Positions 8,833-25,711 of a stretch of 56,930 nt of DNA are shown one piece after another. A program made the position numbers and the translations under genes. The DNA lies in contig JAGVWZ010000022.1 of assembly GCA_018304045.1 (NCBI GenBank), positions 1-56,930 of the forward strand. The letters are read 5' to 3'. How positions within the stretch are numbered: position 1 is the stretch's first letter; each line of letters opens with the position of its first letter. The stretch is from Candidatus Pacearchaeota archaeon. Its GTDB lineage: Archaea > Nanobdellota > Nanobdellia > Pacearchaeales > GW2011-AR1. The notes below the pieces were generated by a model. The model ran no database searches. It worked only from the letters and a program-made list of their open reading frames with translations, and was not told where the DNA came from.

Positions 8833-9014
8833 AAGGAAAAGAAGGAAAAGGTGTTATTGATGAAATTGATGATGTTGAAAGAATTAAAAAAGATGAAGCT
8901 AAAATAGAAGAAGAAGTTGATATTGGCAAGAAAGAAAAATTAAGGGAGCAAAAGAGAGTAGAGGATAATATTGAAACTGAAGAAACTGTTTTTGATTATG
9001 ATGAGAGTTTTTAA
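8829..9014 (+). CDS. small acidic/lysine-rich protein, unknown function
   Basis: Its ATG overlaps the ppsA TGA as ATGA. The composition is low-complexity and rich in E and K. Confidence 0.3.
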   Translation: MKGKEGKGVIDEIDDVERIKKDEAKIEEEVDIGKKEKLREQKRVEDNIETEETVFDYDESF

Positions 9015-9017
9015 TTT

Positions 9018-9036
9018 TTGTTAGCTGATGTAAAAT
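9018..9036 (+). repeat. left copy of a 19-nt perfect direct repeat (ttgttagctgatgtaaaat)
   Basis: Identical to 10238-10256. The two copies flank the NTase/HEPN-like pair. Confidence 0.8.
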
Positions 9037-9072
9037 AGTGAATGTGGATTATGATTAAGATGATGAGTTTTG

Positions 9073-9699
9073 TTATTGATGTTGGTTAATCTGGTCTGTC
9101 CATATTTCAAAAAATTTATAGCTTATTTTTTCCTTGTTTAGAAGGTTTATTATTTTATCTGCAGAGATTTTTGGAACCAAAAATGAGGAAGGAGAGAGTT
9201 TTTTACCATTAAGTTCATTTAAGATTCCTTCTTTATTGTATTTCTTTTCTTTTCTTCCAAATATCATTCTTATTATTTTGTTTCTTTTTGCTATTTTTTT
9301 TATTGGGTCTATGTTAAATTGTACAAATAATTTAATATTTTTTGGAGATTCTTTGTATTTGCTATAGAGAATTATTCCATCACTTATTATGCTTCTCTTA
9401 AGCTTCCATTCATTAATATTTCCAATTTGATAATTTATTGTGTTTTTAATACCTTTTTGATTCCATATTTCATTAATTTTTGATTTATAGAATTTACTTG
9501 ATTCTTCATCTATTATTTTTTTTATTTTTTGCTCATCTTTTTTTGTATTTAAGAATATGTCTATATCACTTTTGTTATCTGCTTCACCCCTTGCAACAGA
9601 TCCAAATAAGATTATTTCCTCTATTTCATTTAATTTTGGAAATATAAATGATACAAATGACATTGCATATGCAATTAAGTCAGATTTCAATGTTTTCAT
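9073..9699 (-). CDS. nucleotidyltransferase-domain protein (MNT-like)
   Basis: ILFGSVARGEADNKSDIDIFL is the GS...DxD motif of minimal nucleotidyltransferases. Confidence 0.7.
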   Translation of the reverse strand: MKTLKSDLIAYAMSFVSFIFPKLNEIEEIILFGSVARGEADNKSDIDIFLNTKKDEQKIKKIIDEESSKFYKSKINEIWNQKGIKNTINYQIGNINEWKLKRSIISDGIILYSKYKESPKNIKLFVQFNIDPIKKIAKRNKIIRMIFGRKEKKYNKEGILNELNGKKLSPSSFLVPKISADKIINLLNKEKISYKFFEIWTDQINQHQ

Positions 9700-10108
9700 T
9701 TTTTAATAACTCCTTAAAAATAGTTTTTAATTTATTAAAATTTTCAAGCATATTTTTTATTTGATTTTCAGCAGGTTTTCCATACATTAAAATATTTCTT
9801 TCTTCTTCTAGAATATATATTAATTTATAAATCTCTTCTTTTTTTGGGAATATTACTGGAAGTTTTCTTTCTATTAGAGGTTCTATTCTTTGTTCTGGCT
9901 TTGGTTTTTTGAACCAATCATGCTTAATTATTTTTCCAATGGAAATTTTATTTGTTAAATGCAGATATAATTCTAGATACTGGATTACGCATGCAGAACA
10001 ATGAAATCCAATTGTTACTGGTTTTCTTTCTATGCCTGAATTTATTGCATCTTCAATCTCTTCTAGATGCTCTATTATTTTTTTTCTATGTTCTTCTATT
10101 GTAGTCAT
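9680..10108 (-). CDS. HEPN-like helical partner of the NTase
   Basis: It overlaps the NTase start by 20 nt. The helical N-terminus and the FHCSACVIQYLELYLH segment resemble PF05168-type HEPN. The assignment is tentative. Confidence 0.4.
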   Translation of the reverse strand: MTTIEEHRKKIIEHLEEIEDAINSGIERKPVTIGFHCSACVIQYLELYLHLTNKISIGKIIKHDWFKKPKPEQRIEPLIERKLPVIFPKKEEIYKLIYILEEERNILMYGKPAENQIKNMLENFNKLKTIFKELLKNENIEI

Positions 10109-10124
10109 TTGAATATTAGTTGGA

Positions 10125-10211
10125 TTAATTTATACCAATAAATGGTATATTTTATACCTTATAAATCTTCCTATAGATTAATTTATACTCTAATCAGGTA
10201 TATTTTATACC
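10125..10211. promoter_or_regulatory. two 34-bp direct repeats, each ending in the palindrome GGTATA-TTT-TATACC
   Basis: ttaatttatac-N8-ggtatattttatacc occurs at 10125-10158 and 10178-10211, just upstream of the minus-strand NTase/HEPN operon. It is a candidate operator. Confidence 0.45.
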
Positions 10212-10237
10212 TGGCTGTGATTATATCCTATAAAATA

Positions 10238-10256
10238 TTGTTAGCTGATGTAAAAT
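10238..10256 (+). repeat. right copy of the 19-nt perfect direct repeat
   Basis: ttgttagctgatgtaaaat, identical to 9018-9036. Confidence 0.8.
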
Positions 10257-10261
10257 TTTGA

Positions 10262-10445: not shown

Positions 10446-10497
10446 ATACAAATGCAAAAGTATTTTTGGATTGTTAATTAGGTATTGTTAATAATGT

Positions 10498-10505
10498 TTA
10501 TATAG
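10498..10505 (+). promoter_or_regulatory. TATA box (tttatata) for the first toxin cassette
   Basis: About 25 nt upstream of the ATG at 10526. The same tttatatagataaatt block precedes the cassettes at 18472 and 20966. Confidence 0.55.
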
Positions 10506-10525
10506 ATAAATTCGCTAGATTGACT

Positions 10526-11677
10526 ATGGGAAAAAGAGGATTGTTTTTATTATTTTTAATTGTTATTAGTCTGGTTTTTGTTTCTGCATTTAATTTTAAT
10601 TCAAATATTTTTGTTAAAAAAGGGGAATTAAAGGTTACAGATGAACATCCGTTCTTTTTGAATGAAAGTTGGGTTAAGGCTTCTGAGTTAAATGTTGGGG
10701 ATGAGCTTGTTACTGTTGATGGAAAGATTGCTAGGATTGTTAATGTTAAGGATGTTAATGAAGAAACTCTTGTTTATAATTTAAGAGTTAATGGTTATGA
10801 GGATTATTTTGCCGAGGGAATTCTTGTACATAATAAAGCTATGGTAAACGCTTATTTAGATGAAGGAATCGGTCCAAATTATGTATTGGGAAGAGGAGAT
10901 GAGGTTGAAATATTGCTTCATGGGGAGGTAATTCGTGGAAAAATTTATCCTAGTTATGATGAAAATAAAAAGGTTATGGATTATCTTCTTGAAGATTCTA
11001 ATGGAAAGTTAATTAATTTTTATCCTTCTGAACTTGACAGATTAACAATTATTGGCAAAAGAGAAGTATTATCTCCAACTTATTTTATTGAGTCTGTTGG
11101 AGACCCAATGTTAGAATCTTCTTTTTGGAAAACAAAGGGATTAATTATTGAAGCATCTTCTCAAAGGGAGTATCGGGGAGTAAAATTTATACCTTTTTCA
11201 GAGTTACCTGATGAAATAGCTGGAGATATTCGTGCAGGGGCAATATTAGGTAATGGATATTCTAAAATCCATACTCATCCCTATGTTGATGAGTTTAGTC
11301 ATAGTTCAATGATACCTTCTTTAACTGATGTAAACTCTTTTTTAATGGATTACGATCTTAAAAGTAGTATCATTGCAATTAGGAATACAGATACTGGGGA
11401 AGTTGCAGGTTATATATTCCTTAAGAGAATAGATTCTAATCCGGAGATAAGTGCTGAATATTTAAGAAAATTTAATAATGATGTTAAAGATTATTCTCCA
11501 ACTGCAGATGGACTTAAATTTTTAGACTATTGGGATTTTTTTGGCAAGGTATATCCTGATGTTTATTTTAGTGGAATGGAAAAACTTAGGGAATATGGAA
11601 TCACCTATAGGATTGTACCAAATAAAAATGCAGGATATGTATTTGATGAAGAGGCCATAGGCTTTATCAAGAAATAA
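10526..11677 (+). CDS. secreted HINT-C cassette protein with a JAB/MPN-like C-terminal domain
   Basis: Signal peptide MGKRGLFLLFLIVISLVFVSA. The HINT C-half is ELKVTDEHPFF...VGDELVTVDGKIARI...VYNL...GILVHN (10628-10834). The tip carries IHTHPYVDEFSHSSMIPSLTD, a JAMM-like HxH..S..D pattern. The ORF track starts at TTG 10520. Confidence 0.65.
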   Translation: MGKRGLFLLFLIVISLVFVSAFNFNSNIFVKKGELKVTDEHPFFLNESWVKASELNVGDELVTVDGKIARIVNVKDVNEETLVYNLRVNGYEDYFAEGILVHNKAMVNAYLDEGIGPNYVLGRGDEVEILLHGEVIRGKIYPSYDENKKVMDYLLEDSNGKLINFYPSELDRLTIIGKREVLSPTYFIESVGDPMLESSFWKTKGLIIEASSQREYRGVKFIPFSELPDEIAGDIRAGAILGNGYSKIHTHPYVDEFSHSSMIPSLTDVNSFLMDYDLKSSIIAIRNTDTGEVAGYIFLKRIDSNPEISAEYLRKFNNDVKDYSPTADGLKFLDYWDFFGKVYPDVYFSGMEKLREYGITYRIVPNKNAGYVFDEEAIGFIKK

Positions 11678-11709: not shown

Positions 11710-12477
11710 ATGAAAAAGAGAGAAATGAAGGGGCAGATTTCTATTTTTGTGATTATTTCAATTGTTGTTATATTTGGTGTAATTATCATTTCATTTTTTT
11801 TAGTTAAGGATAATAGTGTTGTGAGAGAATATATCAATAGAAATAGTGTTTCTTCTGAGATTATGCCTGTTTATGAAAAAATGGATAGTTGTTCTAATCA
11901 AATAGTTATTGATGCTATTCGAATTGTTGGATTACAGGGAGGATATGTAAAACTTCCAAATAATTATTTGGCAACTAATCTTGGAAATATTGCGTATGGT
12001 TATTATAATGGGAAAAATACTTTACCTTCGAAAGTGATTATGGAAAAAGAAATAAGTTCTTATATTGAAGGGGTTTCACCTCTTTGCTTATATGATGATG
12101 TTCTTATTAATTATAAGATTGTTAATGAAAAACCAATTGTTGAAACTAAAATAAATAAGGATAATGTTGAAGTTTCTGTTTCAATGAATATTTTTGTTAC
12201 TAAAAATAATGTTACATATAAACTTGATAAAACATATAATTCTAAAATTTTAATTAGGCTTGGAGATATGATTGATGTTGCAAATGAAATTGTTGAAAGA
12301 GAGAAAAAAGATCCTGGTTATATACCTTTAACTTATTTGTCAGAATTAGACTATAATATTCTTACAATGCCTAATGATGATAATGATGTTGTTTATGCAA
12401 TAGTTGATAGATCAAATAAATCTCTTGTTGATGGAGTTGCTTATAGCTTTTTATTTGCTAATAAGCTTGGAGCATAG
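11710..12477 (+). CDS. type IV pilin-like protein (class III signal peptide)
   Basis: MKKREMKG/QISIFVIISIVVIFGVIIISFF: a [KR]G-Q prepilin-peptidase-type site followed by a hydrophobic helix. Confidence 0.5.
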   Translation: MKKREMKGQISIFVIISIVVIFGVIIISFFLVKDNSVVREYINRNSVSSEIMPVYEKMDSCSNQIVIDAIRIVGLQGGYVKLPNNYLATNLGNIAYGYYNGKNTLPSKVIMEKEISSYIEGVSPLCLYDDVLINYKIVNEKPIVETKINKDNVEVSVSMNIFVTKNNVTYKLDKTYNSKILIRLGDMIDVANEIVEREKKDPGYIPLTYLSELDYNILTMPNDDNDVVYAIVDRSNKSLVDGVAYSFLFANKLGA

Positions 12478-12480
12478 GAT

Positions 12481-15400
12481 ATGAAAACAAATAAATTACT
12501 TTTGAGTATTTTTTTAATATTTATTATTATATTTTACATTAATTTTGTTATAGCAGAAGTTAGTATTAAGGTTGAACCTGATAAAACAATTAATGACCTT
12601 GATTCTCAGACTAGTATTAATGTCAATAATCTTCAAAATTATATTAAACAGAATATTCCTGATTTAAATAATAATCCTGATTTGGGAAAAATAGTTGTTG
12701 ATGTTGATGGAAAAATTAGACTTTATTATAATAACAAAATAGTTTTTGATATACCTAAAGGAATTAAACTAACTTTTGATGGAAAAAAAATGGTTTTTAG
12801 TGGATCTGTTCAGTCTGTTTATACCACAACTTCTAATGGAAGACAACAAGAGATTCCTAGTTTAGTTATAAAAGGAATCATGATTGGAAGTGAAAAGTCT
12901 AAGACTTTTTCTGCTTATTTTGAAGAAAATAATGGGATTATTAATTTGAGGGTTACTGGTGGAATGGGTGTAAGCCAATACAATAGTGACAGGGTTAGTT
13001 TAAGTTATATGATTTATAATCTTAAGGATGGAACTCTAAAAATTGATTCTAATAAAAAACAACTAATTTCTGTAAAAGGAGTTTTTGGAGATTATGGTGG
13101 AGATATAAGAATAGGTGGCAGTGAAACTTCTGATACTTCTTTTAAATTAAATTATTTGGGATTAAAAAATGCTGAGATGAATTTCAATGATAAAAATGAA
13201 GTTGAATATGCTAAATTAGCTTCTTTAAAAGAACAAACTTATAGTTTTGATTATAATGGGAAGAAGTTTGTATTTGGTACAAATAAAGATGGGGGGGAAG
13301 TTATATTTGATCCATTACATCAAATAATCTCTGGAACTAATGCTAATTTAGCTTTTTCTAAAATGGTTGTTGATTCAAAGGGCACTTTTACAGGAAGTCT
13401 TGATGCAGATGGAAATATTGTTTCTCTTAGTTTAGATAATAAAGGAAAATTTAAGGATGATAGGGGTAATGATTATTCATCTTCAAAAAGTTTGAAGGTA
13501 TATTTAGATGGAAAGGATATTAAATCTGAGGAAAATGCTGTTTCATTTATTCTTGGTTCTGAATCAAAGACTACATTAAAGGGTTTAGTAGATGTTATTA
13601 CTACTTCTAAGCTTCATTATTCTGGAAATGAAAAAGCATATACTTTGTTTGATAGTAGAATTAATAATGATTATGGAAAACCTTTTTTTGAAGTTAAAGA
13701 AGGAATCGCTCAAATTGATAATGGTAATGCAAAAATTTTAGTCAGGGATGGAAAAATATTATTAAATAAAATAGGTCTTTCTGATAGAAATGGTTTTGGT
13801 CCTGAATTTGTTGTAAAAGCAACTGGTAAGGACCAAAAGGAAACTTTAGCTAATATTGTCTATACAAATGATGATTTTTCTATTTCAATTAAGTCTTTTA
13901 TTAATGGAAAGGAAACAGACACAAAGGTTGTTGCTTTAAGTAAGGTTAGTGAAACCATGTCTCTTTCTAATTTATTATTTAATTCAGAAAATGTTTTGGT
14001 TGAAAAAGCTTATGCAAAAGCTAGACTAGAGCAACTTCAAGCAGAGCTTGAAATCACAAGAAGCAATGATTTTGATCCTGAAATAAAAAGTAAAATTGAT
14101 GCATTAGAACTTGATATTGTAAATAATCAGAATAAACTTGAAGGTGATGTTGACAAATCTATCGGAAGAATTAGGGATTATTTAGATTCACAAAACAGGG
14201 AAGATGAATCTAGGATGACTGCTCAATTAAGATTAGCTGAATTAATAGGGGATAAAGCAAGTTTAAAATATCAGGAATTTAGAGCAGCGAGTAAAGATGT
14301 AAAGCCTGAGGGAGTAGCTCTTTTAACTTTGGATGAAATTGGTTCAGAAGTTAATAAAATCAAAGACGAATCCTTAAAAATTTATTCAGATTTGATTAGA
14401 GAATCAAAAGGGAATAATGAGAATGTATTTTTAGCTGCTAGTTTTGGTCTTGCAGAATCTTATAAGAAAACAGGGGATTTTAAACAATCTGTTGATGGTT
14501 ATTTAAGCATATCTGGTTCTTCTGAATTTTCTGATGTGGTCAGGTCTGAGGCAATGAGGCAAGCTGCAATTATTGCTACTGAAACAGGAAGTAGATCTGA
14601 TGCTTTAAAATACCTTGAACAGTCTATTAGCCTTAATTCAGATAATGTAAATTCACAAATCTTTGGAAAAAATGTTCAATTAACTTATCTTCGTCAAATG
14701 GTAGGTTCAATGGGAAATGAAGAAACAGAGGCTTATCAAACACTTTTATCTTCAATTGGTTATAATAGGGCGGCTAGTATTACAACTTCTAATGAGCAAT
14801 TATTAGCTAATGTAAATTCAGCTGCAGCAGAATTAACAGAACAACAGTTAGGTGCATTTGCAAATATGTATGCTTTAGATAATGGTTTGACATTGAAAGA
14901 ATTTTATTCTCAGAATCAAGAACAAAGAATAAAGACACTTGAATCTTATTGGATCAGGCAAGGAATGAATCCTGGAAAAGATTCTGAATTTATTGCTAGA
15001 CTTGTTAGTGGGAGTTTTAAGATTGATAATAATCCTGATATGATGGTTCTTAGAGATCCTATTAAAAATTCTGATTTAACTTTAACACTCGATACTCCTG
15101 GTAAAAAATATATGCAACAGGTTTTTTCAATAAGAGATGATATTCTTACTTATGTAAATCCATTTCAAGCTGCAGCCCTTCTTCTGCCTTTTGCTTCTGT
15201 ATCCTATGGTGGAAAAATTATTGGTACTGTTGGAAGTTTAATGGGTGAAGGATTAAATGCAGCTACTCTTGGAGGAGCAGGTGTTTTAAGAACAACAATG
15301 GCTGAAAATTTAGGAGCTTTTACAACTGATTTGCTTCTTGGAACTGGATTATCTGTTGGTGCATATCAAATTCCAGGAGAGGTTTATGGAATTGGTGTTG

Positions 15401-15978
15401 GTGAAGTTGCAGCTCAGGCTGCTGCTATGATAAGTTTTGAGAGATTAGTTACTCAGACTTTAGAAAAAGTAGCTGGTAAATTTAGTCTCGAGGCTGCAGG
15501 TGCATTTAAGAGTGAGGTTGGAGGAGAATTAAAATTAATTCCTGCTTTTAGGGTTGTTGGAGCAGAGGCTGATGCTACTGCAGAAACTTTGGCTCAAAAA
15601 GGTCTTAGGATGATAGAAACTGAAACTGGAGAAAAATTATTTGTTCCAGATTCTGCTGAAGTTGAAGGATTAGAATACTTATTAAAAAGGGATCTTCAAG
15701 TTGGAGCTAGTTCTGGATTAAGAGGTGCTCAACAAAATTTAGATGAAGCTGTAGACAGTTTAGATGCTGCTTTTGCTAGTCCAACAGGTTGTTTCTTAGC
15801 AGGAACAAGAATAATGCTTTCTGATGGAAGCTATAGAAACATTGAAGATATTCAAGAAGGAGATTCTGTTAAGAGTTATGATTTGACTAAGAAATTAGTT
15901 GTTGATTCTAATGTTACAATGACTTTTGTAAGAAAATCTGACAGCTATAGAATAATTGAATATGAGATTCTTGGATAA
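12481..15978 (+). CDS. 1165-aa secreted carrier protein ending in the N-terminal part of a pretoxin-HINT domain
   Basis: N-terminal signal peptide, a large beta-rich region, a coiled-coil/TPR-like middle and a Gly/Ala-rich hydrophobic stretch. The last 62 aa are CFLAGTRIMLSDGSYRNIEDIQEGDSVKSYDL...YRIIEYEILG-stop (15790-15975), which is HINT block A only. Confidence 0.7.
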   Translation: MKTNKLLLSIFLIFIIIFYINFVIAEVSIKVEPDKTINDLDSQTSINVNNLQNYIKQNIPDLNNNPDLGKIVVDVDGKIRLYYNNKIVFDIPKGIKLTFDGKKMVFSGSVQSVYTTTSNGRQQEIPSLVIKGIMIGSEKSKTFSAYFEENNGIINLRVTGGMGVSQYNSDRVSLSYMIYNLKDGTLKIDSNKKQLISVKGVFGDYGGDIRIGGSETSDTSFKLNYLGLKNAEMNFNDKNEVEYAKLASLKEQTYSFDYNGKKFVFGTNKDGGEVIFDPLHQIISGTNANLAFSKMVVDSKGTFTGSLDADGNIVSLSLDNKGKFKDDRGNDYSSSKSLKVYLDGKDIKSEENAVSFILGSESKTTLKGLVDVITTSKLHYSGNEKAYTLFDSRINNDYGKPFFEVKEGIAQIDNGNAKILVRDGKILLNKIGLSDRNGFGPEFVVKATGKDQKETLANIVYTNDDFSISIKSFINGKETDTKVVALSKVSETMSLSNLLFNSENVLVEKAYAKARLEQLQAELEITRSNDFDPEIKSKIDALELDIVNNQNKLEGDVDKSIGRIRDYLDSQNREDESRMTAQLRLAELIGDKASLKYQEFRAASKDVKPEGVALLTLDEIGSEVNKIKDESLKIYSDLIRESKGNNENVFLAASFGLAESYKKTGDFKQSVDGYLSISGSSEFSDVVRSEAMRQAAIIATETGSRSDALKYLEQSISLNSDNVNSQIFGKNVQLTYLRQMVGSMGNEETEAYQTLLSSIGYNRAASITTSNEQLLANVNSAAAELTEQQLGAFANMYALDNGLTLKEFYSQNQEQRIKTLESYWIRQGMNPGKDSEFIARLVSGSFKIDNNPDMMVLRDPIKNSDLTLTLDTPGKKYMQQVFSIRDDILTYVNPFQAAALLLPFASVSYGGKIIGTVGSLMGEGLNAATLGGAGVLRTTMAENLGAFTTDLLLGTGLSVGAYQIPGEVYGIGVGEVAAQAAAMISFERLVTQTLEKVAGKFSLEAAGAFKSEVGGELKLIPAFRVVGAEADATAETLAQKGLRMIETETGEKLFVPDSAEVEGLEYLLKRDLQVGASSGLRGAQQNLDEAVDSLDAAFASPTGCFLAGTRIMLSDGSYRNIEDIQEGDSVKSYDLTKKLVVDSNVTMTFVRKSDSYRIIEYEILG

Positions 15979-16058
15979 ATCAATTTTTATATGTGGAAAG
16001 GTTTATATATAATAATATTGTTTTAATATTATAATAAAATCATTATAATAATTTAAAC

Positions 16059-16658
16059 ATGTTAAAGAATGATGAAATTAAAATATTGAAATTCTTGTTT
16101 GATGATTTAAACAATAATCCTACTATGAGAAATGTTTCAATGTCACTTAAGCAAAAATATCCTCAAACATTTAAAACCATCAAAAATCTAGAAAAAAATG
16201 GATTTATAATACTTAATGAAATTGGAAAAAGTAAAGTTATTCATTTAAATTTTTCAAAAGATAATCTTTATTATATCTGTGTTGAAATTGAGCGAACCGA
16301 GGATTTATGCAAAAAGAATATGGAAATGTTAATTATTAAAGAAAAATTAAAAGACTGTGGGAATTTTGTTTCTTTGATATTTGGAAGCCATGCAAAAAAT
16401 AAGAATCTGAAAGGTTCAGATATTGATTTATTAATCATAATTCCTGATGAAAAAGAAGTAGAAATAACTAATAAAAAAATTAAGAATGCTTTATCTTTGT
16501 ATAATATTGATCTTAATATTATTAGTGAAAAAAGCTTATTTGAAATGTGGGAAAATAAAAGAGAATTAAATGTTGGAAATGAAGTATTAAAAAATCATTA
16601 TGTATTGACTGGTTTTGAAACTTATATAAATTATTTAAGAAAAAAATATGGAAGATAA
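16059..16658 (+). CDS. wHTH + minimal nucleotidyltransferase (MNT)
   Basis: LIFGSHAKNKNLKGSDIDLLIII is the NTase motif. The N-terminus looks like a winged helix. It overlaps the next gene by 11 nt. Confidence 0.7.
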   Translation: MLKNDEIKILKFLFDDLNNNPTMRNVSMSLKQKYPQTFKTIKNLEKNGFIILNEIGKSKVIHLNFSKDNLYYICVEIERTEDLCKKNMEMLIIKEKLKDCGNFVSLIFGSHAKNKNLKGSDIDLLIIIPDEKEVEITNKKIKNALSLYNIDLNIISEKSLFEMWENKRELNVGNEVLKNHYVLTGFETYINYLRKKYGR

Positions 16659-17202
16659 ATATAAAACTAGTACAAGTATAATCAAGAATTTGATAACTGA
16701 AGGAAAAATTAAAGAAGCAATACCTGAAAGCAAAGACTTTTTCTTAAATAAAGCTATTTCTTCAGTTACTCTTTCAGATAGATTATTTAGATTACAAGAT
16801 GAAGAAGATATTGAAACAAATATGTGGATAATAAATATTTCTTATTATGCTATGTTTTTTGCTGCAACAGCACTTCTTGCAAAATATAAAAAGAAAATTG
16901 ACAGTGAGATTGGGATTCATATTTTCACATATCATGCATTAGTCCATTATTTTTTTAATGAGGATAATAAAATTGAAAAACAGTTTATTGAAGAGTATAA
17001 AGATGCTGTTGATGAAGCTGAAGAATTATTGAGGATTTCTGAAAGAAAATCAATAGAATTCATTTCTGATTTCAAGAATGAGCTTGAAAAAAGAAAGATT
17101 TTTACATATAATCTTGGAAGCATAGCTGAAAAAAACAAGGCAGAAACTTCATTAAAAAGAGCTAAGAATTTTGTTAGAATAATTGAGGGAATGATAAAAT
17201 GA
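16648..17202 (+). CDS. HEPN-domain protein (partner of the MNT)
   Basis: Helical PF05168-like pattern (NISYYAMFFAATALLAKYKKK..GIH.FTYHAL). Its TGA overlaps the ATG of the next cassette as ATGA. Confidence 0.6.
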   Translation: MEDKYKTSTSIIKNLITEGKIKEAIPESKDFFLNKAISSVTLSDRLFRLQDEEDIETNMWIINISYYAMFFAATALLAKYKKKIDSEIGIHIFTYHALVHYFFNEDNKIEKQFIEEYKDAVDEAEELLRISERKSIEFISDFKNELEKRKIFTYNLGSIAEKNKAETSLKRAKNFVRIIEGMIK

Positions 17203-18022
17203 AAAATTTATTTAAAAATAGAAAAACAGGTGTTTATTTTATTTTAATATTAATAATTTTTTTAATTGTAATTAGTTTAGTTTTTGTTTCTGCTTTTAAC
17301 TTCAACAAAAATGTATTAAAAGTTACAGATGAACATCCATTTTTTGTTACAGAGAATTGTTTTAATTCTCTGTCCAGTAAAAATCAAACTCAAGATTTTT
17401 CCTGTAATGGAAGTTGGGTTGTTGCTAAAGATTTGCATGTTGGTGATGAGCTTTTTACTATTGATGGAAAGATTGCTAGGATTGTTGGGATTAAAGATGT
17501 TGATGAAAATGTTCTTGTCTATAATCTAGGGGCAGAAAAATATAATGATTTTATTGTTGTGAAACTGTTTTTTTTGAAGCAAGTCTTGGGCAAGATGTGG
17601 AATTAATAAATGATCTCTTTGGCACCAGTGTAAGGTTTAAAGATGGGGCTACAACATTTATTAAAGATACCTCTGAATTAGGTTATATATATGATTTTGG
17701 TTCTGTTGTTAAACAAGATAGAATTTTTTTAAAAGAAGCTAGTAAGTTTGGTCATCAAACTAGTGAAAGAATGGAAGCTATGATTGAAAGGTTATTAGGT
17801 GGGGGAGATCCTGGAAAAGGTAGCCATACTCTTACTGGAGTAAGTAATTCTGTACTAGAGGCTACATCTCAGGGAAAAGAAAGGATATATTATAGAATTA
17901 AACATATTGAGGGTCAAAGATCTCAATTAATAATATTAGCATATTCTCTTAAAGATAGTAGTCAAAAAAGGGTTATAGACCATTTGCAGGTTTTATATCC
18001 TCCAGGTTATAAGTTTCCTTGA
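17199..18022 (+). pseudogene. HINT-C cassette with a RelE/ParE-like tip, frame-disrupted at a T8 run
   Basis: Head MKNLFKNRK plus signal peptide plus LKVTDEHPFF..(19-aa insertion)..VGDELFTIDGKIARI..VYNL..KYNDFIV. The frame breaks at tttttttt (17568-17575) and the terminal VHN is missing. The downstream frame encodes ...GKGSHTLTG..GKERIYYRIKH..QLIILAYSLK. Confidence 0.5.
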
Positions 18023-18343: not shown

Positions 18344-18364
18344 AAAAGCATATTAGGGTATAGG

Positions 18365-18450
18365 TTTTTAAATCTTCCTAATAGTTACCACTATAAAGTA
18401 ACTTATAAACTAGGTTTAGTATCCTAGTTGATATTATTAATCTTTATATA
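18365..18450. promoter_or_regulatory. about 86-bp reiterated intergenic block with two opposed TATA boxes
   Basis: Matches 23376-23463 with 4 mismatches and 20924-20944 in part. tttatata (18443-18450) lies 25 nt before the ATG at 18472. tttttaaa at the other end faces the minus-strand gene. Confidence 0.6.
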
Positions 18451-18471: not shown

Positions 18472-19686
18472 ATGAAAAAAAGAGGATTGTTTGTATTATT
18501 TTTAATTGTTATTAGTTTGATAAGCTTAATTTCAATTGCAAGTTCATTTGATTTGTTTGATAATAAAAACATTTTAAAAGTTACTGGTGAACATCCGTTT
18601 TATTTAAATGGTGAGTGGGTTGTTGCTAAAGATTTGAATGTTGGTGATGAGCTTTTGACTATTGATGGAAAAATTGCGAGGATAATTGGGATTAAAGATG
18701 TTAATGAAAATGTTGATGTGTATAATATAGAGGCTGAGGAGTATAATGATTTTATTGTTGGGCAGGGAATTATTGTGCATAATTCTGATGCTGTTGAATC
18801 AATTCCTCAAATAGAACAAAGACTTGAAAGTGGAGGAATAACTCTGGCTGAACTTGACAGGATTGATTATGCTAATTATCTTTTAGAAAAAAATGGATTA
18901 TCAATATTAACTCCTGAACAAGAAAGAGCACTTTTGCTGTCTCATTATTCAAATACTGGAAATATTGACAAAGTTTGGAGATTGGGTGAAGCTGGTTTAA
19001 GTAATGAACAAATAACTCTTCTAGGAGATAATTGGGTATTTGGTGATAATTTAATATCTTTAAGTGAGGAATTAAAGCAATGGTTAGTCAATGCAGGGGT
19101 TACTAGTAAGGAAGCTAAATCATTATTAACTGGGGTGAATAGTTATGATCAACAAATTGAAATTTTAAAGAGAATAATGGCTGAAAAGAAATTCCTTCCT
19201 GGTGGAAAAACAGGAGGATATATGCCTTTATCAAATCTACAAGTGTCTAGTGAAGTTGTTCTTAATGAGGTGGATATTTTTTTAGCAGGAAATCAAGTTC
19301 TTAGAAATGGAAAACCTGTTCAAGGCCTTTCAATAGGTAATGGATATATTGAATTTGTTGGATATCATTTTACATCACAAATTGGAGCTGATAATTTATA
19401 TAATCAAATGAAATTTGAAAGAATAAACCCATTTGACCCTTATATTTATTTTTCAGAGTCTGGTTGGTTTACAGGAAAATCTCAAAATGAAATAAGGCAG
19501 GTACTTGGTGCAAAATCTGCTCAAGATGTTGTAATTGTGAAAATACGATATCCCTTGAATAAAGCATGGTTGAAGGCAGAACCTGGAAAACCTATTAAAA
19601 TAGCTTTTGATGGGGATATTATTGCAGAAGATCTTTTAAAGAGAAAAGGGATTTTAATGGAAATTAAGGATATTAATGATTTATAG
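18472..19686 (+). CDS. secreted HINT-C cassette protein with a putative ADP-ribosyltransferase-like tip
   Basis: Signal peptide MKKRGLFVLFLIVISLISLISIASS. Complete HINT C-half LKVTGEHPFY...GIIVHN/S (18574-18783). The C-terminal region has YHFTS, PYIYFSES and IIAEDLL, a pattern reminiscent of H-Y-E ARTs. The ORF track starts at TTG 18457. Confidence 0.55.
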   Translation: MKKRGLFVLFLIVISLISLISIASSFDLFDNKNILKVTGEHPFYLNGEWVVAKDLNVGDELLTIDGKIARIIGIKDVNENVDVYNIEAEEYNDFIVGQGIIVHNSDAVESIPQIEQRLESGGITLAELDRIDYANYLLEKNGLSILTPEQERALLLSHYSNTGNIDKVWRLGEAGLSNEQITLLGDNWVFGDNLISLSEELKQWLVNAGVTSKEAKSLLTGVNSYDQQIEILKRIMAEKKFLPGGKTGGYMPLSNLQVSSEVVLNEVDIFLAGNQVLRNGKPVQGLSIGNGYIEFVGYHFTSQIGADNLYNQMKFERINPFDPYIYFSESGWFTGKSQNEIRQVLGAKSAQDVVIVKIRYPLNKAWLKAEPGKPIKIAFDGDIIAEDLLKRKGILMEIKDINDL

Positions 19687-20421
19687 ATTTTGAAGAGCTT
19701 TTTCTATTGATCTATAAAATCTTGTTTCAAATCTATGTTGGTTCGCATGAGGTTGTCTTATTGAAAGCTGAAGTAATGCTTGTTCTGGTTTTGTAAGTCT
19801 TCTATACATAGCTAGAACTCTTATAAGTGGTTCTACTTGTGTTTCATCTTCAAATTGTTTTTGTATCATGACTTCATCTACTTTTAATCTCATTTGCCTT
19901 AATCTTTCTTGAAAATAAAAATCAAAATATTGTTTTAAGAAAACAGAATGCGCTAATGGGGATGGATTTTTAATATCTAAATTGTCTTCAACATCATAAA
20001 AATAAACAGGACTATCTAAAGATTTTTCTAAAACTTCATTTTTTACTTCTTCTGGAACATAGTTTTGAAGGTAAAAAAAATAAGATGGTTTATAGATCTT
20101 TTTTCTTGCTTCTAAAATGTCCATGGATTCTTTGCCTAACAAATGTGCTTCAACATTTCCTTTTCTTTTTCTTGGTCTTCTTGTAAATAAACTGAAGTCA
20201 GTAAAACCATTTATTAATTTCAATCCTTGCCATATTGATTCTACACTGTTTGCATATGCAACTTGTTCTGGTACTGGTATTTTAAATTCTGGAGAATAGG
20301 TGAATGGGCTAAACAGGTTATATGGGGCTTCTCCATAACTACTTACATCCAATGCAGTATCTATTCCTTGGGAATTTTCTCTAGTAGTTGCATTAAATCT
20401 TTCAGTCATTTTGGTGTCCAA
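19681..20421 (-). CDS. hypothetical protein co-transcribed with the macrodomain gene
   Basis: 246 aa with no signal peptide. It overlaps the macrodomain gene by 16 nt and the toxin cassette 3-prime end by 6 nt. A weak NADAR-like N-terminal pattern (NLFSPF...SVESIWQGLK) is not convincing. Confidence 0.3.
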   Translation of the reverse strand: MDTKMTERFNATTRENSQGIDTALDVSSYGEAPYNLFSPFTYSPEFKIPVPEQVAYANSVESIWQGLKLINGFTDFSLFTRRPRKRKGNVEAHLLGKESMDILEARKKIYKPSYFFYLQNYVPEEVKNEVLEKSLDSPVYFYDVEDNLDIKNPSPLAHSVFLKQYFDFYFQERLRQMRLKVDEVMIQKQFEDETQVEPLIRVLAMYRRLTKPEQALLQLSIRQPHANQHRFETRFYRSIEKALQNL

Positions 20422-20837: not shown

Positions 20838-20923
20838 AATTAAGGGCAGTTATTGTTATTTATAAATCTAATGATTTGTTATTACTTGATAGTAACTTAT
20901 AAATTAATTTTTGTAATTCTCAA

Positions 20924-20944
20924 GATATTATTAATCTTTATATA
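20924..20944 (+). promoter_or_regulatory. partial copy of the cassette promoter block with a TATA box
   Basis: gatattattaatctttatata. The tttatata at 20937-20944 lies 25 nt upstream of the ATG at 20966. Confidence 0.5.
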
Positions 20945-20965: not shown

Positions 20966-21834
20966 ATGAAAAAAAGAGGATTGTTTGTATTATTAATTGT
21001 AATCAGTTTGATAAGCTTAATTTCAATTGCAAGTTCATTTGATTTGTTTGATAATGGAAGTAAAAATATATTGAAAGTTACAGGTGAGAAAAATATAATG
21101 ATTTTATTGTTGGGGAGGGGGTTATTGTTCATAATAGTAATAGGATTGTTCCTGACATTACAGAATCCTATTATGAGGTTTTTGTTTATAATTGGGGTAA
21201 ACAATCTAGAGATCTTGTTCCAGGATTTAGTGAAGATGGAATGCTTGAAATAATTATAGTTGATTTTGAGAATGTCAGGCCTGGTTTAAAAAGCGCAATT
21301 GAAACAAGGTTTTCTAGATCTTTTGATTCAATAACTAGTACTTCAAGTTTTGATGAACTAAATAGTGCTGCTGTAAGTTTTTCAAAGAGAATGTATGATG
21401 ATCTTCCGTTTTTAGGCTATAGAACAATAGAGACAATGAGAATTGAAACTTTGGATCAAAAAATTCTTTTTTATAACTATCTGAAGTTATCTCAGGATGG
21501 CACCCCAACATTAAGCGAGTTGATTAATTCTAAGATGTTAGATTGTACTGGTGAGAATCTTTTGATTAGAGAATCGCTTGGTGGAAGCAATAGTGGATGG
21601 AAAATTTTCCATGGAATTGATAATGTTGGGAGGGAAAGAGCCCATACTTTTCTTGCAAAAGAATTTGATATAGATGGAAATTCCTATATGGTGATTATAG
21701 ATCCTACTGAATATAAATTGTATTCAGGCTCTATGAATACTGGGATAAATCCTGATTATATCAGGCCATATGCGATGGTCATTCCAAAACAAGATTTTGA
21801 GAGAAGGGGATTTGTGCAAGTAAGTTTGAGATAG
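20966..21834 (+). pseudogene. mini-HINT cassette with a transglutaminase/papain-like tip; frame break in an A5 run
   Basis: Signal peptide plus ILKVTGE, then a frame break at 21089-21093. One extra A would give GEKKYNDFIVGEGVIVHN/S in frame. The tip has DCTGENLL (Cys 21544), RAHTFL (His 21643) and VIIDPTE (Asp 21699), a Cys-His-Asp order. Confidence 0.5.
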
Positions 21835-23353: not shown

Positions 23354-23375
23354 GGTTATAAACAGAATTTTTATG

Positions 23376-23463: not shown

Positions 23464-23482
23464 AATTCTTGTTATTAAATAA

Positions 23483-23512: not shown

Positions 23513-23574
23513 GGAAAGTTTTAAATACTATATTAATTAATAGTTAATATATATTAACTTATTGGAAATATAAC

Positions 23575-24144
23575 ATGGTACTTACAAAAGAACAAAAAAT
23601 AATTATTATTTTATTTAAAGAAAAGCTTGGATTTTATAATAGCAGAAGCATGTCAAAAATAGTTGGAATTAGTCATCCTGGTGCATTTAAAATACTGAAA
23701 AAACTTGAGAAAAATTTTATAGTTAGTTCTAAAAGGATTGGAAAAGCAATTATTTTTTCTTTGAATTTTGAAAATCCTATGACAAAAAACTTGGTTGAAA
23801 ATGCATTAATAGCAGAATCACAGGAATATAAAAGATGGGTTGAAGAATTTAAGGAAATTGAAGAAATATCTTTATTTGCAATATTATTCGGCTCAATTAT
23901 AAAAAATGAAAATTCAGCAAAGGATATTGATTTACTTGTTGTTTCAGAACAAAATTATCAATCCATTATACAAAAGATAATAAATGGAAAAAACAAGATT
24001 TCTAATAAAAAAATTCATTTAATTCTGCAAATAGGAGAAGATTTTTTAAATGACCTGCATAAAAATAATAAAGTTATTCTTGAAATAATAAAAACAGGCA
24101 TTGTGTTATTTGGACAAGATAAATTTATTAAACTGATAAAATGA
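23575..24144 (+). CDS. wHTH + minimal nucleotidyltransferase (MNT)
   Basis: ILFGSIIKNENSAKDIDLLVV is the NTase motif. The architecture matches 16059-16658. It overlaps the next gene as ATGA. Confidence 0.7.
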   Translation: MVLTKEQKIIIILFKEKLGFYNSRSMSKIVGISHPGAFKILKKLEKNFIVSSKRIGKAIIFSLNFENPMTKNLVENALIAESQEYKRWVEEFKEIEEISLFAILFGSIIKNENSAKDIDLLVVSEQNYQSIIQKIINGKNKISNKKIHLILQIGEDFLNDLHKNNKVILEIIKTGIVLFGQDKFIKLIK

Positions 24145-24659
24145 GCGAGGCAAAAAGAAAAGTGGAATGGTGCTTGAGAAAAGCAGAAGAAGAATTAAAA
24201 AAAGGAACAAAACATAGGGGATTGGTTTTGAAGGAACAAAATTTATCTGAAGCTAGAAAACATATTCAAAAAGCAGAGCATAATCTTAAGGCAATTGAAT
24301 ATTTTAGCAATGGGGGATTTTCAGATTGGAGCATGAGTGCTGTTTTTTATTGCATCTATCATTGTTTTCTTGCAATAAACATGAAATTTGGATATGAAAG
24401 TAGAAATCAGGAATGTACTATTGCTCTTGTCAAACATCTAAAAGAGGAAAATAAAATAAATTTAGATGATAGATTCATAGATGCTTTGGAAATCTATGAT
24501 GAAAGTGAAAGACATGAGACAAATGTTATTGAAAAAAGAGAATATTACACATATGGAACAACTGTTTCAGCAGATAATAAGGAAGAAATTGAAGCAAGCA
24601 TTGTTTTATGCAAGGACTGCATAGCTCAAACGAAAAATATAGTTTTTCAAGATAATTGA
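24141..24659 (+). CDS. HEPN-domain protein
   Basis: EARKHIQKAEHNLKAIEYFSNGGFSDWSMSAVFYCIYHCFLAINMKFG fits the PF05168-type HEPN helix pattern. Confidence 0.6.
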   Translation: MSEAKRKVEWCLRKAEEELKKGTKHRGLVLKEQNLSEARKHIQKAEHNLKAIEYFSNGGFSDWSMSAVFYCIYHCFLAINMKFGYESRNQECTIALVKHLKEENKINLDDRFIDALEIYDESERHETNVIEKREYYTYGTTVSADNKEEIEASIVLCKDCIAQTKNIVFQDN

Positions 24660-24671
24660 GGTAATGATAAA

Positions 24672-25711
24672 ATGAAAAATATATTTAAGAATAGGAAAAG
24701 AGAATTTTTAATATTATTAATTGTAATCAGTTTGATAAGCTTAATTTCAATTGCAAGTTCATTTGATTTGTTTGATAATGGAAGTAAAAATATATTGAAA
24801 GTTACAGGTGTAATTATGAGAATTATTTTGCTGGGAATGTGCTGGTGCATAATAAGCCTGTTCCAAATAAGTATTTGGATCCTGAATTTGCAGGGGTTAA
24901 ACAAGTTTCACCTCAAGAATTAGATAATCTTTATGATGAAAAAGATGCTTTAGATAGACTTGTTGGACAAGAGCCTGGAATTGTTAGAAATGATCAGGGA
25001 AATATCAAAGAAGTTTATTTGATAGATCCTTCTAAAGTTGATTTGGATAAATTGCCTGAAAGAATAAGATATCTGGCTGAAAATAGTGATGGACCTATTG
25101 CAATAAAATATTATAGACAAGAGAGTAGACTTACTCGTACATATTATCCTGATGACAAGTTAGAAGATTTTATAGCTGAGCTAGAGATATCTGAAAAATT
25201 AAATGCAAGATTTGAAGCAGAGGGAATGAAACCGCTTTTACCTAAAAAGAGTTTGATTGGAATATCTGCAGATTCTGAAAATGGGAATATTTTTGTAAAA
25301 GGTTTTATTGCAGAAGAATTAATTCCTGAAAAATCTGTTGTTGAACTTAGGACTGAACTGGAGGATGTTTATTTAGATAAAGAAGTTGATTTTGGAAGAA
25401 TTCTTGAGCTAGAAAGCAGAATAAATAGTAAGTTATCTGAATCTAGATATACATTCAATAGGATTTTTGAACAAGAGGGAATTGGTTGGTATGATGCAGA
25501 TGATAGAAATACTGCAATTGGATTTCTTGAAAGAAGAACTGGTAGAATATTGACTTTGACACAGGTTTTAGATGGAAATTATATTATAGGAAAGGCCCCT
25601 AATAGTGGAGATATAGAGGTTTATATAAGATTTTTTGAAATTGGATTTGGAAGACAAGTAAAACCTGGAAGGGGGTATTTTGGTGGTTTTGTTGATTGTT
25701 ATTTTCATTAA
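24672..25711 (+). pseudogene. mini-HINT cassette with a tip of unknown fold; frame break at 24810-24812
   Basis: Head MKNIFKNRK plus signal peptide plus ILKVTG. The downstream frame reads (C)NYENYFAGNVLVHN/KPV..., followed by a 290-aa tip. One added nucleotide after ggtg would restore the frame. Confidence 0.5.

What the first reader, a model, noticed from the sequence alone, without database searches (positions are those of the whole stretch)
12481..15978. Split pretoxin-HINT: the carrier stops where the cassette HINT halves begin
The 1165-aa secreted protein ends with GCFLAGTRIMLSDGSYRNIEDIQEGDSVKSYDL...SYRIIEYEILG-stop (15790-15975, residues 1104-1165). This is a clear HINT/intein block A with Cys1, a GT.I....G...IE....GD.V pattern and the following strands. 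Blocks B, F and G are absent. Cassettes 10526 and 18472 start, right after the signal peptide, with [EI]LKVT[DG]EHPF (the block B TxxH). They then run to VYN...F..G[IL][IL]VHN (blocks F and G with the terminal His-Asn). The two parts do not overlap and meet at a loop, like the halves of a split intein. The break is upstream of block B, which is atypical. No cassette carries a HINT-N, and the carrier has no HINT-C.

Hypothesis: after secretion, one carrier HINT-N can pair with any of several HINT-C-toxin proteins. That would trigger trans-cleavage by Asn cyclisation, or trans-splicing. The +1 residue is Ser in cassettes 18472 and 20966 and Lys in 10526 and 24672. This would exchange toxin tips at the protein level rather than by DNA recombination.

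Alternative: an ancestral carrier-HINT-toxin gene was simply broken by the MNT-HEPN module at 16059-17202.
Basis: partly seen in the sequence, partly recalled or inferred. Interest (0 to 1): 0.9.

Follow-up and report, generated by a model that had tools for sequence, protein, structure and literature searches.

The report
Split intein-like domain joining archaeal toxins
A self-processing (intein-like) protein domain is encoded in two separately exported pieces, one ending a large surface protein and the other starting several small toxin-type proteins; this layout recurs in about 20 other loci from tiny DPANN archaea, so toxin heads are probably attached to, or released at, one carrier after export.

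Summary
The 1165-aa carrier ends (TAA) with only the N-half of a pretoxin-HINT/BIL domain, Cys1104 to Gly1165. Cassettes at 10526 and 18472 begin with a signal peptide followed by only the C-half (TxxH to His-Asn). Joined, the halves align without a gap to contiguous HINTs, score 64 bits on Pfam PT-HINT as one domain, and fold confidently (pLDDT 93.6) into a BIL/mini-intein fold.

The split is not a local accident. Nineteen non-identical HINT-N tails, in about 20 loci and 4 fragments from DPANN archaea with at least two unrelated carrier bodies, stop at the same point (...Y..I.YE.I, 0-8 aa, stop). About 100 of the 150 best 50%-identity clusters are signal peptide + HINT-C + variable tail. The residue after His-Asn is Ser or Cys in 116 of 126 split cassettes but in only 12 of 226 contiguous HINTs (Lys in 149). 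That fits trans-splicing rather than simple cleavage.

The MNT-HEPN module sits inside the start of the carrier's neighbouring cassette, not inside the HINT. Only 2 of the 5 window cassettes are intact.

Verdict: a conserved, naturally split HINT with one carrier and many cassettes, at a new split site, apparently undescribed. The chemistry (ligation or release) is inferred, not shown.

The parts
12481..15978 (+). Carrier gene: a 1165-aa exported protein with an N-terminal signal segment (about residues 1-26), a large body, and a HINT-N tail.
   Evidence: ORF and translation. Hydropathy shows only the N-terminal hydrophobic segment. The only full-length homolog is P0001 (Ca. Pacearchaeota, 44% identity), which lacks a HINT.
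15790..15975 (+). HINT-N half: Cys1104 to Gly1165, preceded by Gly at -1. It holds blocks A/N2 only and is followed directly by TAA.
   Evidence: my HINT-N HMM, positions 1-59 of 62, E 9e-19. It aligns to the tails of 8 other carriers, with G, C, F, L, T, D, I, D, F, R, Y, Y and E invariant.
15962..16012 (+). Relic start of the cassette that once overlapped the carrier's end. The ATG lies inside the codons for E-Y-E and reads MRFLDKSIFICGKVYI*.
   Evidence: The same ATG-in-EYE overlap starts intact cassettes in L012, L013 and L062. This reading is tentative because the region is AT-rich.
16059..17202 (+). MNT (nucleotidyltransferase) and HEPN pair, inserted between the carrier and cassette B.
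   Evidence: Pfam NTP_transf_2 E 4e-9; HEPN weak (E 0.057).
17199..18022 (+). Cassette B, degenerate. It has a signal segment and a HINT-C with an insertion. Block G is mutated (His-Asn to Gln-Asp) and a 14-nt insertion puts the tail (17597-18022) in another frame.
10526..11677 (+). Cassette A, intact and upstream of the carrier. It has a signal peptide, HINT-C (ELKVTDEHPF...GILVHN), Lys at +1 and a variable tail.
18472..19686 (+). Cassette C, intact. It has a signal peptide, HINT-C (ILKVTGEHPF...GIIVHN), Ser at +1, a conserved linker region and a variable tail.
   Evidence: P0003 is 99% identical; P0004 and P0005 share the linker.
20966..21834 (+). Cassette D, disrupted. The signal peptide and LKVTGE are followed by a deletion of most of HINT-C and a -1 frame change at an A5 run. 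Then come KYNDFIVGEGVIVHN|S and the tail.
24672..25711 (+). Cassette E, disrupted. It has the same deletion and a -1 frame change without a homopolymer run. Block G reads NYFAGNVLVHN|K, followed by the tail. It lies directly after an MNT-HEPN pair.
18361..18450 (+). Conserved cassette upstream region with a TTTATATA box about 25 nt before the ATG. Copies also lie at 10479-10520, 20855-20944 and 23372-23461.
   Evidence: Repeat families D3 and D4; sequences. Promoter function is inferred from the archaeal TATA consensus.
11710..12477 (+). A 255-aa protein with an N-terminal hydrophobic segment, immediately upstream of the carrier. A gene of the same length and position is present in the P0001 loci.
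23575..24659 (+). Second MNT-HEPN pair, lying between a cassette promoter with a relic start (23483-23512, MKKIGILSA*) and cassette E.
   Evidence: (D6).
9073..10108 (-). Third MNT-HEPN pair, upstream of cassette A.
   Evidence: ORF translations. The 208-aa product carries a GS..G....SD.D motif typical of a nucleotidyltransferase. Not run through Pfam.

Best explanation
The locus encodes a naturally split pretoxin-HINT (bacterial-intein-like, BIL-type) domain. The N-half is 62 aa and carries Gly-1/Cys1; it forms the C-terminus of a large Sec-exported carrier. The C-half is about 72 aa and carries TxxH, VYN and the terminal His-Asn. It follows the signal peptide of separately transcribed, separately exported cassette proteins that carry variable effector or toxin tails.

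Shown:
- The split architecture.
- The exact complementarity of the halves.
- Conservation of the break point and of the catalytic residues across DPANN archaea.
- One carrier with several cassettes.

Inferred:
- After export the halves reassemble into an active HINT.
- With Ser at +1 (cassette C and about 92% of the family), the reaction is class-1-type protein trans-splicing. It would ligate carrier residues 1-1103 to the cassette tail (...ASPTG|SDAVES...) and discard both HINT halves.
- With Lys at +1 (cassette A), reassembly would give Asn-cyclisation cleavage, which releases the tail, or a nucleophile-independent ligation.

The net effect would be post-translational, combinatorial loading or release of alternative toxin heads on one carrier.
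For: 1. Complementary halves. They align without a gap to contiguous HINTs, form a single PT-HINT domain of 64 bits, and fold at pLDDT 93.6. The model matches BIL domains 6y75, 6tmm and 2lwy at TM 0.87 and mini-inteins at TM about 0.8.

2. Conserved break point. Nine carriers in genome loci, twelve in metagenome loci and four fragments all end ...TF[VIK]R....Y..I.YE.I, then 0-8 aa, then a stop. That makes 19 non-identical HINT-N tails. The carrier bodies fall into at least two unrelated families.

3. The cassette form is a large family. About 100 of the 150 best 50%-identity cluster representatives start with a signal peptide followed by HINT-C. E, H, W, G and His-Asn are invariant across 30-93 sequences.

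4. The +1 residue. It is Ser or Cys in 116 of 126 split cassettes and in 12 of 226 contiguous HINTs, where Lys occurs in 149. Splicing needs Cys, Ser or Thr at +1 (PMC11766414).

5. Double-HINT cassettes. Some cassettes have the half-HINT (+1 Ser) followed by a second, contiguous HINT (+1 Lys, Thr, Gln or Val) before the tail. This suggests a joining step followed by a release step.

6. Separate genes. Cassettes have their own TATA-like upstream repeats. In adjacent pairs the cassette ATG overlaps the carrier's last codons, in different relative frames.

7. Same compartment. Both partners have N-terminal signal segments, and the window carrier has no other hydrophobic segment.

8. Toxin-type tails. 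Fic and Scabin-like ADP-ribosyltransferase domains occur in a few family members.
Against: - There is no biochemical evidence for association, cleavage or ligation.
- Both halves are acidic (mean net charge -4.0 and -4.8), so the electrostatic steering typical of DnaE-type split inteins is absent.
- The +1 Ser could be a clade trait rather than a catalytic requirement, because the split cassettes form one lineage.
- Eight of 126 split cassettes, including window cassettes A and E, have Lys at +1.
- Three of the five window cassettes are degenerate, as in silent orphan arrays.
- Extracellular thiol chemistry needs reducing conditions.
- The tails of the window cassettes have no recognisable toxin domain, and no clear same-strand immunity genes follow them.
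Confidence: 0.6

Rival explanations
1. Trans-complementation gives cleavage only. Docking of a HINT-C cassette on the carrier's HINT-N activates Asn cyclisation, and possibly thioester hydrolysis, so the tail is released as a free toxin at the carrier. Nothing is ligated.
For: Pretoxin-HINT domains are generally thought to release toxins by autoproteolysis (established view of the family, Zhang et al. 2012, PMC3482391). Contiguous relatives lack a +1 nucleophile. Window cassettes A and E have Lys at +1.
Against: It does not explain why Ser or Cys at +1 is kept in 92% of split cassettes but only 5% of contiguous ones. It does not explain why Cys1 and Gly-1 are invariant on carriers. It does not explain why some cassettes carry a second, contiguous HINT downstream of the half-HINT.
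Confidence: 0.22
2. The two HINT halves act only as a non-covalent docking pair, like cohesin and dockerin. They attach effector proteins to the carrier without any bond making or breaking.
For: Split HINT halves are known to associate tightly. Nothing here shows chemistry.
Against: The full set of catalytic residues (Cys1, Thr/His of block B, terminal His-Asn, +1 Ser) is invariant or nearly so across very divergent members. A pure docking role would not require this.
Confidence: 0.08
3. Decay and recombination substrate. The carrier is a truncated polymorphic-toxin gene. The cassettes are silent orphan modules whose HINT-C stretch serves only as a homology handle for DNA recombination. In the first reader's version, the gene was broken by the MNT-HEPN insertion.
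For: Three of the five window cassettes are degenerate. Block-G regions of cassettes A and E look like the contiguous-type NYFAEGILVHNK, which suggests recombination with classical modules. MNT-HEPN modules did insert next to cassettes.
Against: The same stop position is found in about 20 independent loci without MNT-HEPN. The carrier shares no sequence with the cassettes that could recombine. Cassettes have their own start codons, signal peptides and promoter-like repeats. The half-domain is under strong conservation in about 100 clusters at 50% identity or less.
Confidence: 0.05
4. Programmed frameshifting or read-through fuses carrier and cassette into one polypeptide with a contiguous HINT.
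For: In adjacent pairs the two ORFs overlap by 4-20 nt.
Against: The relative frame differs between loci: +1 in L012 and -1 in L019. The fusion would place a hydrophobic signal segment of about 30 aa inside the HINT. In this window the intact cassettes are 2-5 kb away, and one lies upstream of the carrier. The carrier's stop codon is TAA.
Confidence: 0.03

Closest known systems
Naturally split inteins: DnaE of cyanobacteria, gp41-1/NrdJ-1 from metagenomes, and the atypical AceL-TerL/GOS-TerL/VidaL. Names are from my own knowledge; the 25-aa N-fragment of AceL-TerL and the residue requirements are from PMC11766414.
   Same: Two separately encoded fragments rebuild one HINT fold. Cys1 is on the N-fragment, and TxxH plus the terminal His-Asn are on the C-fragment. 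The first residue of the C-extein is a Ser nucleophile.
   Different: - The split site is new. It lies after about 62 aa, just before block B; canonical sites lie between blocks B and F, and atypical ones after 16-25 aa.
- Both partners carry signal peptides, so the reaction would take place outside the cytoplasm.
- One N-partner serves several C-partners.
- The exteins are not halves of one conserved housekeeping protein.
- There is no charge complementarity.
- By sequence the domain belongs to PT-HINT/BIL, not to classical inteins.
Pretoxin-HINT (Pfam PF07591) / A-type bacterial intein-like (BIL) domains of polymorphic toxins. Solved examples: 2lwy, 6y75/6tmm.
   Same: These are the best sequence and structure matches. 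The domain sits between a large exported carrier and a variable C-terminal tail.
   Different: The known domains are contiguous, and the residue after His-Asn is usually not a nucleophile (Lys in 149 of 226 here). In this locus the domain is divided between two genes and +1 is Ser. From my own knowledge, an artificially split Clostridium thermocellum BIL domain was reported to trans-splice (Aranko et al. 2013, FEBS J).
Polymorphic toxin loci with orphan cassettes (Rhs, CdiA and similar; Zhang et al. 2012, PMC3482391)
   Same: One large carrier gene is accompanied by an array of alternative C-terminal modules, some of them degenerate. The tails are highly variable, and a few relatives carry Fic or ADP-ribosyltransferase domains.
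   Different: Classical orphans lack a start codon, promoter and signal peptide, and they replace the resident toxin by DNA recombination through shared sequence. Here the cassettes are complete exported genes and share no sequence with the carrier. Any exchange would have to occur at the protein level.
'Fractured genes': split-intein halves separated by an inserted free-standing gene (Dassa et al. 2009, from my own knowledge, not checked here)
   Same: In this window an unrelated module (MNT-HEPN) lies between the gene with the N-half and the next gene with a C-half.
   Different: In most related loci the two genes are directly adjacent or overlapping, with nothing between them. The inserted module is a toxin-antitoxin-type pair, not a homing endonuclease.

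Membership tests
Split intein (naturally split HINT that trans-splices) | Two separately encoded fragments that together form one complete HINT fold, without overlap | tested here: met
   Gapless alignment to contiguous HINTs. A single 64-bit PT-HINT domain. AF2 pLDDT 93.6 and TM 0.87 to BIL structures.
Split intein (naturally split HINT that trans-splices) | Catalytic set: Cys/Ser1, block B Thr-x-x-His, terminal His-Asn, and Cys/Ser/Thr at +1 | tested here: met
   Carrier has Gly-1/Cys1. Cassette C has T..H, His-Asn and Ser at +1. In the family, +1 is Ser or Cys in 116 of 126. This is not met for cassette A (Lys at +1).
Split intein (naturally split HINT that trans-splices) | Fragments associate and ligate the exteins | not testable with these tools
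   Needs in-vitro mixing with mass spectrometry, or detection of junction peptides.
Split intein (naturally split HINT that trans-splices) | The exteins are the two halves of one conserved host protein | tested here: not met
   Carrier bodies belong to at least two unrelated families. Ortholog P0001 has no HINT. The C-exteins are hypervariable.
Split intein (naturally split HINT that trans-splices) | Split at a known natural site (between blocks B and F, or after 16-25 aa) | tested here: not met
   The break lies 62 aa after Cys1, immediately before block B.
Pretoxin-HINT, Pfam PF07591 | Score above the Pfam gathering threshold | tested here: met
   Cassettes A and C score 44.6 and 48.5 bits against 27.7, but cover only profile positions 55-137. 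The carrier tail alone is below every HINT cut-off. The joined halves score 64.3 bits over positions 7-137.
Pretoxin-HINT, Pfam PF07591 | A contiguous domain within one polypeptide, upstream of the toxin | tested here: not met
   The halves are in different genes, with a stop codon and a signal peptide between them.
Polymorphic toxin system | Exported carrier plus hypervariable C-terminal toxin domains | tested here: inconclusive
   Variability is clear. Fic and Scabin-like domains occur in 5 of 93 relatives. The window tails have no Pfam match.
Polymorphic toxin system | Cognate immunity gene directly downstream of each toxin | tested here: inconclusive
   The genes after the cassettes are on the opposite strand. 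A Macro-domain gene and a DUF6939 gene follow cassette C. No pairing was demonstrated.
MNT-HEPN toxin-antitoxin pair | Adjacent nucleotidyltransferase and HEPN genes | tested here: met
   16059-17202: NTP_transf_2 E 4e-9; HEPN only weak, E 0.057. The other two pairs were judged by similarity and repeats only.

The most novel reading that the evidence does not exclude
DPANN archaea use an extracellular, one-to-many protein trans-splicing system. A single surface carrier ending in a 62-aa HINT-N is covalently loaded, after Sec export, with whichever signal-peptide + HINT-C effector is expressed. Toxin or effector heads are therefore exchanged at the protein level, without DNA recombination. This would be the first natural split intein-like system that acts outside the cytoplasm, on non-housekeeping proteins, and at a new split site. 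It would also be a ready-made set of Ser(+1) split ligases for protein engineering.
Probability: 0.45. Interest if true: 0.92.

Novelty: new variant of a known kind. Interest (0 to 1): 0.85.

Why it matters
If the halves really splice, three things follow.

- It would show a new way to diversify secreted weapons or host-interaction proteins. One scaffold would combine with many heads after translation. That is attractive for genome-reduced DPANN episymbionts that depend on large surface proteins.
- It would extend natural protein trans-splicing to the extracellular space and to a one-to-many partner logic.
- It would provide a large, diverse family of small split HINT pairs (62 + about 72 aa, Cys1/Ser+1) with a new split site for protein ligation technology.

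Even if only cleavage occurs, partner-triggered toxin release by a split PT-HINT has not been described. I found no description in four full-text searches aimed at it.

Tried and rejected
- **Alternative genetic code or read-through.** The carrier stop is TAA and ORFs are long under table 11. Rejected.
- **Programmed frameshift fusion.** The frame relation differs between loci, and the window's intact cassettes are distant or upstream. Rejected.
- **Homology-driven DNA swapping onto the carrier.** tblastn shows the carrier shares no segment with the cassettes. Rejected.
- **Word-index homolog searches.** These were insensitive. The carrier gave 1 hit, the joined halves 1 hit, and the HINT-N alignment only short fragments. 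The exhaustive HMMER search and the locus scans carried the analysis.
- **Structure prediction.** Single-sequence AF2 of the joined halves was useless (pLDDT 35). An alignment built from window and search-derived rows worked.
- **Charge complementarity of the halves.** Not present.
- **First metagenome query.** Repeated with A6.
- **Literature.** Four searches aimed at the split architecture itself (split HINT in archaeal polymorphic toxins, split intein in DPANN, Hint domain in DPANN, naturally split BIL with a signal peptide) found no prior description. Four others on related terms were also run. The most relevant archaeal survey (Makarova et al. 2019, mBio, PMC6509191) is not held, so I could not check whether it mentions this architecture.
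- **tRNA scan of the window.** None found.


Full report
**1. The observation**

The ORF 12481-15978 (+) encodes a 1165-aa protein with a typical N-terminal signal segment and ends with TAA. Its last 62 residues, from Cys1104 (codon TGT at 15790) to Gly1165, match only the N-terminal part of HINT profiles: Hint positions 5-61 of 213 and Hom_end_hint 1-38. Both matches are below the curated cut-offs.

Five cassettes start at 10526, 17199, 18472, 20966 and 24672. Each begins with a hydrophobic signal-type segment and continues directly with [EI]LKVT[DG]EHPF. The intact ones (10526 and 18472) match PT-HINT profile positions 60-136 and 55-137 of 137, at 44.6 and 48.5 bits against a cut-off of 27.7. 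tblastn over the window finds one HINT-N only, in the carrier, and HINT-C only in the cassettes.

The halves fit exactly.
- Joined, they align without any gap at the junction to the contiguous HINT of P0002.
- They score 64.3 bits on PT-HINT as one stretch covering positions 7-137.
- With an alignment of relatives they fold at mean pLDDT 93.6 and pTM 0.85. The junction lies in a turn between two strands.
- The model superposes on BIL domains (6y75, 6tmm, 2lwy; TM 0.87) and on mini-inteins (TM about 0.8).
- By sequence profile the best solved relative is the Clostridium thermocellum BIL domain (E 3e-29).

Only cassettes A (10526) and C (18472) are intact. B lost block G and its tail is in another frame. 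D and E share a deletion of most of HINT-C with a -1 frame change.

**2. Is it a local accident?**

No. An exhaustive HMMER search with the first 115 residues of cassette C gave 5664 hits at E below 1e-3. Among the 150 best representatives of 50%-identity clusters, about 100 are proteins of 250-740 aa. In these, the HINT-C half starts at about residue 20-50, right after a signal peptide, and there is no block A. In many of them an Ala-x-Ala-type cleavage motif lies 1-3 residues before LKVT.

Loci fetched with this motif from species-representative genomes are DPANN archaea: Woesearchaeota, Pacearchaeota, Nanoarchaeota and Aenigmatarchaeota.

I scanned all stop-to-stop ORFs of these loci with HINT-N and HINT-C HMMs that I built here. 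Eight large ORFs of 899-1875 aa end in HINT-N, 2-4 residues before a stop: L007, L008 (also held as L018), L012, L013, L015, L019, L024 and L062. All have signal-peptide + HINT-C genes on the same contig.

A metagenome scan added twelve more carriers with the same ending (L085-L096). Nine of them have cassettes downstream on the same contig. Four short database fragments end the same way.

All tails read G-C-F-L..T......(about 40 aa)..TF[VIK]R....Y..I.YE.I, then 0-8 residues, then a stop. In total there are 19 non-identical HINT-N tails. The bodies of these carriers fall into at least two unrelated families. The only full-length homolog of the window carrier, P0001 from a Pacearchaeota MAG, has a different Cys-rich tip and no HINT.

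A single contiguous member of the same lineage exists: P0143, which reads ...YRIIEY-GLAG-KLKVTQEHPF...VVHNSD. Outside DPANN, the fetched loci carry mostly contiguous or tandem HINTs; the few single-half ORFs there were not examined further.

**3. Gene organisation**

In directly adjacent pairs (L012, L013, L019, L062) the cassette ATG overlaps the last codons of the carrier. It is often the ATG inside gaATATGaa, which encodes E-Y-E. The relative frames differ between loci, so these are two coupled genes, not a frameshift fusion.

In the window the same ATG is present at 15962, but it opens only a 16-codon relic (MRFLDKSIFICGKVYI*). An MNT-HEPN pair follows (16059-17202), and then the degenerate cassette B.

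The module did insert here, but into the first codons of the neighbouring cassette. The HINT split is older and is conserved where no such module exists.

Intact cassettes have a conserved upstream repeat with TTTATATA about 25 nt before the ATG. I read this as an archaeal promoter, which is an inference.

**4. What the split HINT most likely does**

Cys1 and Gly-1 are invariant on carriers. Thr/His of block B and the terminal His-Asn are invariant or nearly so on cassettes, across 30-93 very divergent sequences. A half-domain cannot fold alone, so a partner is required, and the only candidate is HINT-N on carriers.

Both partners have signal segments, and the window carrier has no other hydrophobic stretch. 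They would therefore meet outside the membrane.

The most informative signal is the residue after His-Asn.
- In 126 non-identical split-type HINT-C domains it is Ser in 114, Cys in 2 and Lys in 8.
- In 226 contiguous HINTs from the same searches it is Lys in 149, and Ser, Thr or Cys in only 12.
- The six contiguous HINTs in DPANN loci all have Lys. None of 15 contiguous HINTs from the metagenome loci has a nucleophile.

Class 1-3 inteins need Cys, Ser or Thr at +1 for transesterification (PMC11766414).

Several cassettes carry the half-HINT (+1 Ser) followed by a second, contiguous HINT (+1 Lys, Thr, Gln or Val) before the tail. This reads naturally as 'join to the carrier, then release'.

I therefore favour protein trans-splicing for Ser(+1) cassettes such as C. 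The predicted product is carrier 1-1103 joined to SDAVES... For Lys(+1) cassettes such as A, I favour partner-triggered cleavage.

Caveats:
- There is no biochemistry.
- The split cassettes are one clade, so the Ser could be inherited rather than required.
- Both halves are acidic, so there is no DnaE-like electrostatic pairing.
- Three of the five local cassettes are broken.

**5. Are the tails toxins?**

The tails are hypervariable (mean column identity 8%). Among 93 relatives Pfam recognises Fic in 3 and Scabin-like ADP-ribosyltransferase in 2, and nothing in most of the others. The window tails have no Pfam match.

A Macro-domain gene and a DUF6939 gene lie tail-to-tail with cassette C. 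These could be immunity genes against an ADP-ribosylating tail, but I did not test this. 'Toxin' is therefore plausible by analogy, not shown.

**6. Comparison with what is known**

By sequence and fold this is a PT-HINT / A-type BIL domain. By organisation it works like a naturally split intein. It differs from every split intein I know of in five ways:
- the split site (62 aa, just before block B);
- export of both partners;
- one-to-many pairing;
- exteins that are not halves of one protein;
- no charge complementarity.

It differs from classical polymorphic-toxin orphan arrays because the cassettes are complete exported genes that share no sequence with the carrier.

Four full-text searches aimed at the split architecture itself (split HINT in archaeal polymorphic toxins, split intein in DPANN, Hint domain in DPANN, naturally split BIL with a signal peptide) found no description of it. 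Four others on related terms were also run. The 2019 archaeal polymorphic-toxin survey could not be read, so prior mention cannot be fully excluded.

**7. Verdict**

This is a real, conserved and apparently undescribed split pretoxin-HINT system of DPANN archaea.
- Confidence about 0.9 that the split architecture is functional and selected.
- Confidence about 0.45-0.6 that the chemistry is ligation.
- Novelty: new variant of a known kind.
- Interest: 0.85.

Noticed in passing
window 15962-17202 and 23372-24659: Both + strand MNT-HEPN pairs sit just after a truncated cassette start (MRFLDKSIFICGKVYI* and MKKIGILSA*). Each is followed, with an ATGA overlap, by a cassette with a different N-terminus (MKN[LI]FKNRK...). 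The HEPN 3' end plus that N-terminus form a 104-nt repeat (17170-17273 and 24643-24746, 74% identical). The module seems to insert repeatedly, or to be copied, into the first codons of cassettes. Both downstream cassettes are degenerate.
   Followed up: partly
window 9013-9041 and 10233-10261; 10123-10159 and 10176-10212: A 29-nt direct repeat (86% identical) flanks the minus-strand MNT-HEPN pair (9073-10108). Two 37-nt repeats lie just beside it. These could be the ends or the target duplication of a small mobile module.
   Followed up: no
window 19681-20837 (-): A DUF6939 protein (E 1.5e-24) and a Macro-domain protein (E 1.4e-8) lie tail-to-tail with cassette C. They are candidate immunity or antidote genes if the tail ADP-ribosylates its target. 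An SGNH/GDSL hydrolase (22721-23353, -) follows cassette D.
   Followed up: no
window 18787-19080 (cassette C residues about 106-200); also P0004, P0005, P0025: A conserved region of about 90 aa directly after His-Asn-Ser (...RIDRAN..L..NGL...LLLAHYS...GEAGLS..QI.LLGDNW[IV]FGD) is shared by cassettes whose distal tails differ. It may be a linker or pre-toxin module of unknown role.
   Followed up: no
window 20966-21135 and 24672-24853: Cassettes D and E are 91% identical over the signal-peptide region and share the same internal HINT-C deletion with a -1 frame change. Their block-G regions and tails differ. This suggests recombination between a deleted 5' module and different toxin modules. 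In D the shift is at an A5 run and could be a sequencing error; in E it cannot.
   Followed up: partly
P0007, P0011, P0032, P0058 and many bacterial loci (L025-L084): Many bacterial proteins carry tandem arrays of 2-6 contiguous PT-HINT domains, each followed by Lys at +1 and separated by short linkers. The purpose of such repeated self-cleaving modules is not obvious.
   Followed up: no
L001-L004 (P0001 loci) compared with window 11710-15978: The carrier's ortholog in a Pacearchaeota MAG keeps the upstream 255-aa membrane-anchored partner gene. It ends in a Cys-rich 200-aa tip instead of HINT-N, and no cassettes are called nearby. Within one carrier family, the C-terminus therefore alternates between a fixed tip and a split-HINT socket.
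   Followed up: partly
P0143 (507 aa): This is the only contiguous member of the split-type HINT lineage found. It has Ser at +1 and a GLAG linker exactly where the others have the stop, start codon and signal peptide. It is either the ancestral state or a re-fusion, and it would be a useful positive control for splicing assays.
   Followed up: partly
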